Part shown: positions 398 through 15,823 of the stretch, in pieces
How the letters are laid out: the number at the start of each line of letters is the position of its first letter
Numbering within the stretch: the first letter of the stretch is position 1
Origin: a virus
Length of the DNA stretch: 64,000 nt
Virus record (IMG/VR): IMGVR_UViG_3300046534_001250
Location: 1-64,000 of that record
Reading direction: 5' to 3' (one strand)
Translations under genes and position numbers: made by a program
The notes under the pieces: generated by a model
What the model was told of the DNA's origin: nothing
The model's input: only the letters and a program-made list of their open reading frames with translations
The model's database searches: none

Positions 398-473
398 GGG
401 GGTATAGCTCAGTTGGTAGAGCGCTTGACTGTTAATCAAGATGTCGTAGGTTCAAGTCCTTCTACCCCCGCCA
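398..473 (+). tRNA. tRNA-Asn(GTT)
   Basis: Canonical cloverleaf; CTTGA-CTGTTAA-TCAAG; GGTTCAAGTCC; CCA. Confidence 0.95.
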
Positions 474-14641: not shown

Positions 14642-14777
14642 GGGGTTTGAACCAGAATATATGGTTCTTACATACTTAGGAAACAACATGTGGGGCGCAG
14701 ATGGAATCACGTCTATAAAGCTTGGCTTAAATCACATCCGAGCAGTCATGCCGATTATTCGCCCAATGGTGAAATAA
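14559..14777 (+). CDS. Small hypothetical protein
   Basis: TAATG-coupled to next gene. Confidence 0.45.
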   Translation: MELNQSWNLNPRALPPKKNQLHLVMMPEGFEPEYMVLTYLGNNMWGADGITSIKLGLNHIRAVMPIIRPMVK

Positions 14778-15823
14778 TGTCACGCATGCCAGTACCCGAT
14801 AGAATCCAATGCCCTCCCGTAGAGCAGCAAGAACTCTTCCCAGAGCAGGAGACCACACAGTGGGGAGATACCGTAGTTCCCGATCCTGTATCAGGCGCTA
14901 AGAAAGCGGATGCTTTAACAAATTGTGCTATTAAAAACGATGCTGGGAAACCTCGAATCGACCTTTTGCCAGTGCAACCACTATTAGACACAGCTAAAAT
15001 CTTTGCTTTTGGCGCTGCAAAGTATACAAAAACAGTTGACCTAGATAACAATTCTGCGCTTCAGTACCTGAAAGGAGAATTGTTAAAATGCGAAACTGTG
15101 ATGACTGTGCTAGCAAACACTATGCAAAAGGAAGATGTAGAAGGTGTTATGAAAAAAACCTTCGAGAATCTAATCCAGAATACGCTGAGCGCCAAAGGGA
15201 GAACTCTCGTCGATGGAGAGCAGATAATCCCGAACGTGTTGAGAAGGCGCGGCAAAAGCGTATGGCCTGCCCAAAACTCAGAAAGCGAGACGCTAACACT
15301 AAAGAGCGAATCAAACTGCGCCATCAAGGACTTACAAAAGAGTCAGCTAATTTGCTATTACAATTCCAATCAAATTGCTGCTCAATCTGCGAAAGAAATT
15401 TTGATGTCTGCACCAAGCACCTTGATCATTCACACGAGACAAAACTTGCAAGAGGCTATCTTTGTAGTCGGTGCAACAACGGATTGGGAATGTTTGGCGA
15501 CACTATTACTGGCCTTGAAAAAGCACTTCAATACCTCCTTGACCCACCAGCTAAGAACTTTATCAATAGGCAAAGGCGACCCAATTAGCTTGACAATTTC
15601 TGGAGAGCGTAATTGGGAGCAAGGTTTTCAATGGAGCAGAACGTACGCTGCGCTCCAACGCCACTTAATGGCGTGGTGGGCAGGAGAAAACACTGACGAC
15701 GAAAGCGGACAGAGTCACCTAGCACATGCTATGTGCAACTTAATGTTTTTGATGGAATTTGAAAACACACACGGAGAAAGAGATGATAGGCCAATTAGGA
15801 AGCCCGACACAACACGTAGATAG
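14777..15823 (+). CDS. dATP/dGTP diphosphohydrolase-like protein (DUF5664) with a 192-codon in-frame insertion
   Basis: KNDAGKPRIDLLP..FGAAKY|insert|GERNWEQG...AALQRHL.AW..GE..D.ESG..HLAHA.CNL. Confidence 0.85.
   Translation: MSRMPVPDRIQCPPVEQQELFPEQETTQWGDTVVPDPVSGAKKADALTNCAIKNDAGKPRIDLLPVQPLLDTAKIFAFGAAKYTKTVDLDNNSALQYLKGELLKCETVMTVLANTMQKEDVEGVMKKTFENLIQNTLSAKGRTLVDGEQIIPNVLRRRGKSVWPAQNSESETLTLKSESNCAIKDLQKSQLICYYNSNQIAAQSAKEILMSAPSTLIIHTRQNLQEAIFVVGATTDWECLATLLLALKKHFNTSLTHQLRTLSIGKGDPISLTISGERNWEQGFQWSRTYAALQRHLMAWWAGENTDDESGQSHLAHAMCNLMFLMEFENTHGERDDRPIRKPDTTRR
15026..15601 (+). mobile_element. 576-nt insertion carrying an EndoVII-type endonuclease, stop-free in host frame
   Basis: Removing it restores GAAKY-GERNW. 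Confidence 0.75.
15088..15588 (+). CDS. Endonuclease VII-family (putative homing) endonuclease, nested in alternate frame
   Basis: CDDC..HYAKGRCRRCY; CSIC...LDHSHET..ARGYLCSRCNNGLGMFGD; own AAGGAG RBS. Confidence 0.88.
   Translation: MRNCDDCASKHYAKGRCRRCYEKNLRESNPEYAERQRENSRRWRADNPERVEKARQKRMACPKLRKRDANTKERIKLRHQGLTKESANLLLQFQSNCCSICERNFDVCTKHLDHSHETKLARGYLCSRCNNGLGMFGDTITGLEKALQYLLDPPAKNFINRQRRPN

What the first reader, a model, noticed from the sequence alone, without database searches (positions are those of the whole stretch)
15026..15601. Endonuclease dual-coded in a stop-free insertion that is neither an evident intron nor an intein
Seen: 576 nt inserted exactly between GAAKY and GERNW of a DUF5664 gene. 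It encodes an EndoVII nuclease with its own RBS in another frame, while the host frame stays open for all 192 codons (rough chance (61/64)^192, about 1e-4). Only 62 nt and 13 nt flank the nuclease ORF, I see no group I/II core motifs, and there is no intein His-Asn/Cys-Ser-Thr junction. The insert begins TKTVDL and ends ISLTIS, which could pair as a beta stalk. Inference: a selfish element that spares its host gene by keeping an overlapping frame translatable as a looped-out passenger, or by unrecognised splicing or ribosome bypass.
Basis: partly seen in the sequence, partly recalled or inferred. Interest (0 to 1): 0.82.

Follow-up and report, generated by a model that had tools for sequence, protein, structure and literature searches.

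The report
Unspliced homing endonuclease inside phage gene
A selfish DNA-cutting gene sits in a shifted reading frame inside a phage nucleotide-hydrolase gene, and selection keeps the host frame free of stops, so the enzyme is apparently translated straight through it; this rare layout was first published in 2025 for other phage genes.

Summary
A 576-nt insert (15026-15601) splits a PF18909 (DUF5664) dNTP pyrophosphohydrolase gene exactly at KY|G. It carries an intact Endonuclease VII ORF (15088-15588) with its own Shine-Dalgarno sequence. The host frame is the nuclease +1 frame and has no stop.

On this one sequence the open frame is only weakly significant (P 0.003-0.08 given the nuclease coding). 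The family settles it. A nuclease-centred search found 27 distinct cassettes at the same site, 477-663 nt. All are multiples of three with no host-frame stop: 0 observed against 58 expected. Non-embedded relatives carry stops at the expected rate (244 against 257).

Substitution patterns show purifying selection on the nuclease frame and on the host exons. The host-frame reading of the insert evolves almost neutrally.

No intron model, conserved RNA structure or intein feature was found. The predicted insert is largely disordered between two short terminal strands.

Best reading: a homing-endonuclease cassette translated through as a passenger loop. This is the kind published as the ShiLan domain (2025), here with another nuclease family and host gene. 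This scan had already noted the same DUF5664/Endo VII arrangement on another genome. I class it as a new member of a known kind.

The parts
14777..15025 (+). Host gene part 1: start codon to the Tyr of GAAKY of a PF18909 (dGTP_diPhyd_N / DUF5664) dNTP pyrophosphohydrolase.
   Evidence: Pfam, two stretches; profile 6-38 at 14933-15031. The ATG overlaps the stop of the upstream ORF (TAATG).
15026..15601 (+). The mobile cassette: a 576-nt in-frame insert of 192 host-frame codons with no stop.
   Evidence: Homologous cassettes lie at the same KY|G site in 27 distinct loci.
15026..15087 (+). 5' leader of the cassette. It is translated in the host frame (TKTVDL...) and carries the nuclease ribosome-binding site, AGGAG at 15073-15077.
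   Evidence: GGAG-type sites followed by ATG recur in most family members. AlphaFold2 predicts a strand at residues 85-89 and a helix at 91-104, with block-mean pLDDT 66-81.
15088..15588 (+). Endonuclease VII-family (HNH/beta-beta-alpha-metal) homing endonuclease ORF of 166 aa, one frame behind the host frame (host = nuclease +1). DH.H motif at 15424-15435; C..CN motif at 15463-15477.
   Evidence: PF02945 E 2.7e-15. The profile matches T4 endonuclease VII 1e7d and Hpy99I. The Zn-binding Cys residues and the D/H/N catalytic residues are invariant in A4. pN/pS is 0.33-0.6.
15589..15601 (+). 3' tail of the cassette. It completes the host-frame codons (...SLTIS) up to the junction.
   Evidence: AlphaFold2 predicts a strand at residues 270-274.
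15602..15823 (+). Host gene part 2: GERNW... to the stop, in frame with part 1 through the insert.
   Evidence: PF18909 profile positions 37-99, 77 bits. pLDDT is above 90.

Best explanation
This is a free-standing-type homing endonuclease gene of the Endonuclease VII family. It has inserted into the most conserved motif (GAxKY|GxRNW) of a phage dNTP pyrophosphohydrolase gene, as a cassette that is neither spliced from the RNA nor from the protein.

The cassette length is a multiple of three, and its +1 frame is kept free of stop codons. Ribosomes translating the host mRNA therefore read straight through and make the enzyme with a 192-residue insertion. That insertion is mostly disordered, and its two ends are short strands that probably pair to bring the two enzyme halves together. 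The nuclease is made separately, by internal initiation at its own Shine-Dalgarno sequence and ATG.

The nuclease presumably cuts insert-free alleles at the KY|G coding sequence. Repair from the insert-bearing allele during co-infection would then copy the cassette in (homing).

Shown: the anatomy, selection for an open host frame, selection on the nuclease and on the exons, sporadic distribution, and the absence of intron and intein features. Inferred: read-through translation, tolerance of the loop, internal initiation, cleavage specificity and homing.
For: (1) A nuclease-centred search, unbiased with respect to the host frame, found 27 distinct complete cassettes at KY|G, of 477-663 nt. All are multiples of three, all have 0 host-frame stops, and in all of them the host frame is the nuclease +1 frame.

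(2) Over the nuclease core, the +1 frame has 0 stops in 3377 codons. Synonymous permutation of each ORF's own codons expects 58, and the +2 frame has 314. Of the 50 rows outside the complete-cassette set, the non-embedded relatives carry 244 stops against 257 expected; the 8 other stop-free rows are 6 cassette copies or contig-cut cassettes and the 2 TerL-embedded loci. The non-embedded group includes L146, L147 and L158-160, which nest within the embedded clade and carry 9-11 stops each.

(3) pN/pS is 0.33-0.6 in the nuclease frame and about 0.9-1.2 in the host frame within the insert. It is 0.06 for the exons of L128/L136 (pS 0.84, pN 0.05) and 0.22-0.60 for the other listed pairs.

(4) There is no Rfam intron in the window or in 20 related loci. 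Twelve aligned inserts give no conserved RNA structure: -3 kcal/mol, covariation -0.12. The insert's last base varies and is not a conserved G.

(5) None of 36 members has a Hint or intein Pfam hit at E<=1. The host-frame profile finds nothing in the PDB. The residue after the insert is an invariant Gly, and the last insert residue varies.

(6) AlphaFold2 gives pLDDT above 90 for the exons and below 50 for residues 112-234, with strands at 85-89 and 270-274.

(7) An exon-only tree of 148 proteins needs at least 19 changes of insert state.

(8) Free-standing relatives lie directly upstream of uninterrupted PF18909 genes in Gordonia phage OneUp and Mycobacterium phage Bongo.

(9) The same layout is published for phage methylases (PMC11855218).
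Against: There is no RNA or protein data. No RNA run is listed for this virus, so neither read-through translation nor the absence of splicing is directly shown.

An open frame is equally required by any protein-level excision, and that is excluded only by the absence of known motifs.

The insertion sits in an invariant motif (K, Y, G, N, W), where a 190-residue loop might be expected to harm the enzyme.

The strand pairing of the insert ends rests on medium-confidence predictions, and I could not inspect the coordinates.

No insert-free allele of this particular phage was seen in four other samples, so current mobility here is not shown.

The sequences are related, so the combined P values overstate independence, although the closest pair already has pS 0.49.
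Confidence: 0.8

Rival explanations
1. The insert is translated in the host frame and then removed or cut at the protein level. The mechanism would be non-canonical: an unrecognised self-splicing or self-cleaving element, or a host or phage protease acting on the disordered loop.
For: Protein-level removal also needs an open, in-frame insert, so the main statistical result fits it equally well. The first insert residue is Thr or Ser in 23 of 27 elements. Endonuclease VII-like nucleases encoded out of frame inside true inteins are described in actinophages (bioRxiv 10.1101/2025.01.02.630785).
Against: None of 36 members has a Hint or intein domain, and the profile finds no PDB relative. The residue after the insert is an invariant Gly, not Cys/Ser/Thr. 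The last insert residue is T/S/P/Y/E/D/A/N/L, not a conserved Asn. The host-frame amino-acid sequence evolves at pN/pS about 1, which a catalytic fold would not tolerate. The nuclease ORF covers about 90% of the insert, leaving no room for a splicing domain. The middle of the insert is predicted disordered.
Confidence: 0.08
2. The insert is removed or skipped at the RNA or translation level. It would be a degenerate or novel self-splicing intron whose core overlaps the ORF, or a case of ribosome bypassing like T4 gene 60.
For: Phage homing endonucleases of this kind often live in group I introns. The 5' exon ends in U, as group I introns require. The RNA folds slightly better than shuffles, z -2.25.
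Against: There is no Rfam hit at E<=10 in the window, nor at E<=1 in 20 related loci. Twelve inserts share no structure or covariation. There is no conserved terminal G and no GUGYG start. Splicing or bypass would leave no reason for 27 lineages to stay stop-free and in frame; known phage group I introns carry early in-frame stops (PMC11855218, section 3.5). The 576-nt gap is more than ten times the 50-nt gene 60 gap, and the take-off and landing codons do not match.
Confidence: 0.04
3. The host gene is simply inactivated by the insertion. The open frame would then reflect selection against premature termination (polarity on downstream genes, toxic fragments) or chance, not a working enzyme.
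For: PF18909 genes are accessory and absent from many phages. Disrupted arrangements exist: L147 is split with 62 stops, and L146 has an orphan C-terminal piece. For this single sequence the P value is only 0.003-0.08.
Against: Exons of insert-bearing alleles are under strong purifying selection. For L128/L136, pN is 0.05 against pS 0.84, and all invariant motif residues are kept. The 3' junction restores the C-terminal frame in every one of the 27 elements, which polarity alone does not require.
Confidence: 0.05

Closest known systems
ShiLan domain and Pacc40 gp60 'hidden HNH' insertion elements in mycobacteriophage DNA methylase genes (Arsenault, Gosselin and Gogarten, Genes 2025, PMC11855218)
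   Same: An in-frame, stop-free insertion in a phage gene. It encodes a homing-type nuclease in another frame and has no intron or intein features. The host-frame part is predicted as a poorly ordered loop or hairpin. Its distribution is sporadic. A related free-standing nuclease lies next to the uninterrupted target gene in other phages.
   Different: The nuclease family differs: Endonuclease VII PF02945, with no detectable relation claimed to the ShiLan HNH. The host gene differs: a PF18909 dNTP pyrophosphohydrolase. The setting is environmental phages (ice, marine, sludge), not actinophages. Most members here have a clear Shine-Dalgarno sequence plus ATG, whereas the paper invokes leaderless GTG initiation. 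The family is large and divergent enough to demonstrate selection on the open frame, which the paper did not test (the word 'selection' does not occur in it).
[quoted passage not shown]
   Same: An Endonuclease VII-like nuclease is overprinted in a second frame of an in-frame insertion in a phage gene.
   Different: In those cases a genuine intein splicing domain flanks the overprinted region and removes the insert from the protein. Here no Hint domain, nucleophile or terminal Asn exists, and there is no room for them.
Free-standing and intron-encoded phage homing endonucleases (T4 Seg/Mob proteins, I-TevIII, I-HmuI) and genes split by them (Aeromonas phage Aeh1 nrdA/mobE); recalled from general knowledge
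   Same: A selfish nuclease targets a conserved coding motif of a phage nucleotide-metabolism gene and spreads by double-strand-break repair.
   Different: Those elements lie between genes, inside a self-splicing intron, or split the gene into two polypeptides. Here the gene remains one continuous reading frame.
Rickettsia palindromic elements inserted in frame in protein-coding genes (Ogata et al. 2000); recalled from general knowledge
   Same: Selfish DNA survives inside genes by being translated as a tolerated surface insertion.
   Different: Those elements are short (about 100-150 bp), non-coding and non-autonomous. This cassette is autonomous and dual-coding.

Membership tests
Hidden out-of-frame homing-endonuclease insertion element (ShiLan-domain type) | Insertion inside a host ORF relative to insert-free homologues, at one precise site | tested here: met
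   The Pfam domain is split at profile position 36/37. All 80 viral loci fetched with the host-protein alignment have no insert at KY|G. In the top-150 list, 73 proteins are insert-bearing and 74 insert-free.
Hidden out-of-frame homing-endonuclease insertion element (ShiLan-domain type) | Insert length a multiple of three and no stop in the host frame | tested here: met
   The insert is 576 nt with 0 stops. The same holds in all 27 distinct family members. Stops: 0 observed against 58 expected.
Hidden out-of-frame homing-endonuclease insertion element (ShiLan-domain type) | Complete nuclease ORF in another frame of the insert | tested here: met
   PF02945 E 2.7e-15. The profile matches T4 endonuclease VII. 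The catalytic and Zn-binding residues are invariant.
Hidden out-of-frame homing-endonuclease insertion element (ShiLan-domain type) | No intron and no intein signature | tested here: met
   RNA; protein.
Hidden out-of-frame homing-endonuclease insertion element (ShiLan-domain type) | Insert retained in the mature protein; nuclease active in homing | not testable with these tools
   This needs RT-PCR, protein mass and cleavage assays. It has not been shown experimentally for the published examples either (PMC11855218, section 4.4).
Group I intron | Conserved catalytic core (P3-P9) detectable by covariance model, and conserved structure among homologues | tested here: not met
   No Rfam hit at E<=10 in the window or at E<=1 in 20 loci. 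RNAalifold on 12 inserts gives -3 kcal/mol with no covariation.
Group I intron | Terminal G at the 3' end of the intron | tested here: not met
   The insert ends in T, or in C if the boundary is slid by one base. The last base varies across the family.
Intein | Hint splicing domain (blocks A, B, F, G) | tested here: not met
   No Pfam Hint or intein family in 36 members at E<=1. No PDB match to the profile at E<=10. The middle of the insert is predicted disordered.
Intein | Cys/Ser/Thr as the first C-extein residue, and Asn (or Gln/Asp) as the last intein residue | tested here: not met
   The residue after the insert is Gly in all 36 aligned proteins. The last insert residue is T/S/P/Y/E/D/A/N/L.
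Endonuclease VII family (PF02945; HNH/beta-beta-alpha-metal nucleases) | Profile match above the curated cut-off, with the Zn-binding Cys pairs and the D-H...N catalytic residues | tested here: met
   56.4 bits against a cut-off of 23.6. C98, C101, D113, H114, C126, C129 and N130 are invariant. 1e7d matches at E 1e-9.
dGTP_diPhyd_N (PF18909, DUF5664) dNTP pyrophosphohydrolase | Profile match above the cut-off, with the conserved motifs intact | tested here: met
   98.5 bits against a cut-off of 27, in two stretches. K82, Y83, G276, N279, W280 and H296 are invariant. Enzyme activity of family members comes from PMC12884076 and was not tested for this protein.
Programmed translational bypass (T4 gene 60 type) | Short (about 50 nt) gap with matched take-off and landing codons and a stop after take-off | tested here: not met
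   The gap would be 576 nt. The codons flanking it are TAT and GGA on the exon side, and ACA and TCT inside. No stop follows the junction.

The most novel reading that the evidence does not exclude
Stop-free dual coding may be a general third way for homing endonucleases to live inside phage genes, besides introns and inteins. It would be maintained by selection and used by one Endonuclease VII lineage in several host genes, including the essential large terminase. The translated passenger might also be more than inert filler: it could be removed by an unknown post-translational mechanism, or it could modulate the host enzyme.
Probability: 0.1. Interest if true: 0.8.

Novelty: new member of a known kind. 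Interest (0 to 1): 0.5.

Why it matters
Homing endonucleases are thought to survive inside genes only with the help of a self-splicing intron or intein. This family gives unusually strong comparative evidence for a splicing-free alternative: 27 divergent lineages, with free-standing relatives as a natural control. The cost to the host is removed by keeping a second reading frame translatable.

It also shows three things. An enzyme can tolerate a roughly 190-residue unstructured insertion in its most conserved motif. Gene callers hide such nucleases by reporting one long 'hypothetical' protein. And overlapping-frame constraints can be detected by depletion of stop codons.

The family offers a tractable test case: a small enzyme with a published assay and a clear ribosome-binding site. 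The published examples lack these.

Tried and rejected
- blastn of the region against phage records found nothing.
- tblastn of the host protein found no phage record covering 80% or more of it. The apparent partial hit in Pseudoalteromonas phage HP1 is an insert-free gene.
- A single-protein scan of viral contigs found nothing.
- Alignment A1 was too diverse for the search for related loci.
- Alignment A2 returned only insert-free alleles.
- A hand-made DNA pattern gave 1 true locus in 22.
- Foldseek on the whole model found nothing, probably because of the disordered insert.
- Sequence search of an insert-free homologue against the PDB found no relative.
- No RNA holder is listed for this stretch. 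Contigs of four DNA runs showed no joint skipping the insert.
- The 2026 dnaX preprint could not be opened.
- A -1 frameshift route to the nuclease was considered and dropped. There is no slippery heptamer between the last upstream stop in the nuclease frame and the ATG, and the family keeps its own ribosome-binding site.
- The multiple-of-three length was dropped as independent evidence, because indels inside the nuclease ORF must be in frame anyway.
- L128/L136 (exons 96% identical in protein, nucleases 63%) at first looked like cassette replacement. Saturated synonymous divergence in the exons (pS 0.84) shows that it need not be.

Full report
**What is there.** The window is part of an 82-kb IMG/VR virus record. 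Its sequence recurs in several ice-metagenome runs. An ORF at 14777-15823 matches Pfam PF18909 (dGTP_diPhyd_N, formerly DUF5664) in two stretches that break at profile position 36/37. Between the Tyr of GAAKY and the Gly of GERNW lie 576 nt (15026-15601). In the host frame this stretch has no stop; the other two forward frames have 23 and 3. One frame behind the host frame, ORF 15088-15588 encodes a 166-aa protein that matches PF02945 Endonuclease_7 at E 2.7e-15. AGGAG lies 10 nt upstream of its ATG. Contigs from four other samples bridge both junctions with identical letters, so the arrangement is not an assembly artefact. The record holds only this one PF18909 gene and this one Endonuclease VII gene, but it is estimated to be only 62% complete.

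**Is the open frame more than chance?** For this sequence alone, base composition gives 7e-6. The overlapping nuclease ORF constrains the sequence, though. Redrawing synonymous codons by the window's codon usage leaves the host frame open in 0.33% of trials. Permuting the ORF's own codons leaves it open in 7.9%. The single sequence is therefore only suggestive.

**The family.** A search of 1.84 billion representative proteins with the 348-aa product returned many proteins of 290-390 aa that align across the insert in one stretch. About 73 of the best 150 carry an insert of 160-265 residues at exactly KY|G. Called proteins are biased towards open frames, so I searched from the nuclease side instead. 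Alignments of the nuclease protein were used to scan viral and metagenome contigs. Every locus was then examined in six frames with profiles of the two host exons and of the nuclease. This gave 27 distinct complete cassettes at KY|G, plus four cut by contig ends. Lengths range from 477 to 663 nt. Every one is a multiple of three, every one has no host-frame stop, and in every one the host frame is the nuclease +1 frame.

Over the nuclease core, the +1 frame has 0 stops in 3377 codons. Permuting each ORF's own synonymous codons expects 58, and the +2 frame has 314. Non-embedded relatives found by the same scans have 244 stops in the +1 frame against 257 expected. Some of these nest inside the embedded clade on the nuclease tree (L146, L147, L158-160) and carry 9-11 stops each. 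The closest pair of embedded cassettes already differs at half of its synonymous sites (pS 0.49), so the lineages are close to independent at the sites that matter. The host frame is therefore kept open by selection.

**Which frame carries amino-acid selection?** Within the insert, pN/pS is 0.33-0.6 in the nuclease frame and about 0.9-1.2 in the host frame. In the exons of insert-bearing alleles it is 0.22-0.60. For L128/L136 the exons have pN 0.05 against pS 0.84, a ratio of 0.06, while the host-frame reading of the insert gives 0.94. The apparent conservation of the host-frame insert in alignment A1 is a shadow of the nuclease. For example, the invariant Gly comes from the invariant Trp codon of the nuclease, and the motif VVGATTD overlies the nuclease motif C..CNNG. 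So the nuclease is functional and the host enzyme is functional. The passenger peptide only has to be translatable.

**Not an intron.** Rfam finds no intron family at E<=10 in the window or at E<=1 in 20 related loci. Twelve aligned inserts give a consensus structure of -3 kcal/mol with no covariation. The insert ends in T, not G, and the last base varies in the family. No insert begins with GUGYG. No terminator-like site lies in the insert on the coding strand. Splicing or bypass would also leave no reason for the frame to stay open.

**Not an intein.** None of 36 insert-bearing proteins has a Hint or intein Pfam match at E<=1. A profile of them matches nothing in the PDB at E<=10. The residue after the insert is always Gly, and the last insert residue varies. 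The nuclease ORF covers about 90% of the insert. AlphaFold2 run on alignment A1 gives pLDDT above 90 for both exons and below 50 for residues 112-234. The insert ends reach intermediate confidence, with strands at 85-89 and 270-274.

**The nuclease.** Its profile matches T4 endonuclease VII (1e7d, E 1e-9) and Hpy99I. The two Cys pairs, the D-H pair and the Asn are invariant. Most family members have a GGAG-type site 7-12 nt before an ATG inside the host-frame leader. This points to independent internal initiation. In four members the nuclease's TGA stop is formed by the host's own Gly-Asp or Gly-Glu codons just after the junction.

**Mobility.** On a tree built from the exons alone (148 proteins), the presence of the insert needs at least 19 changes, against about 48 for shuffled labels. 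Exon and nuclease distances correlate only partly, with Mantel r 0.49. Related free-standing Endonuclease VII genes lie directly upstream of uninterrupted PF18909 genes in Gordonia phage OneUp (gp128/gp129) and Mycobacterium phage Bongo (gp77/gp78), and in three metagenome loci. Two other outcomes of invasion occur. L146 has a complete gene, then a free nuclease, then an orphan C-terminal piece. L147 has the gene split, with stops, by an Endonuclease VII-dNMP kinase fusion. Homing itself is inferred, not shown. No insert-free allele of this phage was seen in four other samples.

**Comparison with what is known.** The same layout was published in 2025 for mycobacteriophage DNA methylases: the ShiLan domain and Pacc40 gp60 (PMC11855218). 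That work includes the absence of intron and intein signals, a predicted loop, and a free-standing nuclease next to the target in relatives. The paper does not mention Endonuclease VII or pyrophosphohydrolases, the word 'selection' does not occur in it, and it proposes leaderless initiation. A 2025 preprint describes Endonuclease VII-like nucleases out of frame inside genuine inteins. Earlier reports of this scan noted the same DUF5664/Endo VII arrangement on another genome, and analogous cases in helicases and methylases. I treated these as leads only and tested the claims here independently. PF18909 proteins are dATP/dGTP(/dUTP) pyrophosphohydrolases by experiment (PMC12884076).

**Verdict.** The element is a new, large and well-supported member of a kind first described in 2025. 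The mechanism, read-through as a passenger loop with separate internal initiation of the nuclease, is inferred from evolutionary and structural predictions. It has not been shown at the RNA or protein level.

Noticed in passing
L110:383-2836 and L111:359-2758 (viral contigs): A related Endonuclease VII ORF (36-37% identity) is nested in the same relative frame inside large terminase genes of 818 and 800 aa, between the ATPase and nuclease domains. The host frame has no stop across it. There is no intein Pfam hit at E<=0.01 and no HN/Cys-Ser-Thr junction visible. I did not define the insert boundaries against an insert-free TerL, so a non-canonical intein is not excluded.
   Followed up: partly
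L146:287-1293 (metagenome contig): A complete insert-free PF18909 gene (287-598) is followed by a free-standing nuclease of the embedded clade (644-1132, 9 stops in its +1 frame). An orphan second copy of the gene's C-terminal part (1126-1293, profile 45-94) comes after that. This looks like an invasion that brought or left a duplicate gene end.
   Followed up: partly
L147:1477-2863 (metagenome contig): An Endonuclease VII fused to a dNMP kinase domain (PF21448), 386 aa in all, splits a PF18909 gene. The host frame carries 62 stops and the length is not in frame. The C-terminal piece has its own ATG (2660-2863).
   Followed up: partly
L197 (Gordonia phage OneUp 76398-77817) and L198 (Mycobacterium phage Bongo 49178-50193): In these isolated actinophages, an annotated endonuclease VII gene overlaps by a few bases the start of an uninterrupted PF18909 gene that is annotated 'hypothetical protein'. 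This is a free-standing nuclease next to its probable target.
   Followed up: partly
L139, L143, L144, L109 (3' junctions): In four cassettes the nuclease's TGA stop is not in the insert. It is formed by the host's Gly-Asp or Gly-Glu codons (GGTGA) just after the junction.
   Followed up: yes
L126:281-344: Type II hammerhead ribozyme match (RF02276, 47.3 bits against a gathering score of 37), about 1 kb upstream of the cassette-bearing gene.
   Followed up: no
window 398-473 and 665-741: tRNA-Asn (GTT) and tRNA-Val (TAC) genes lie at the start of the window.
   Followed up: no
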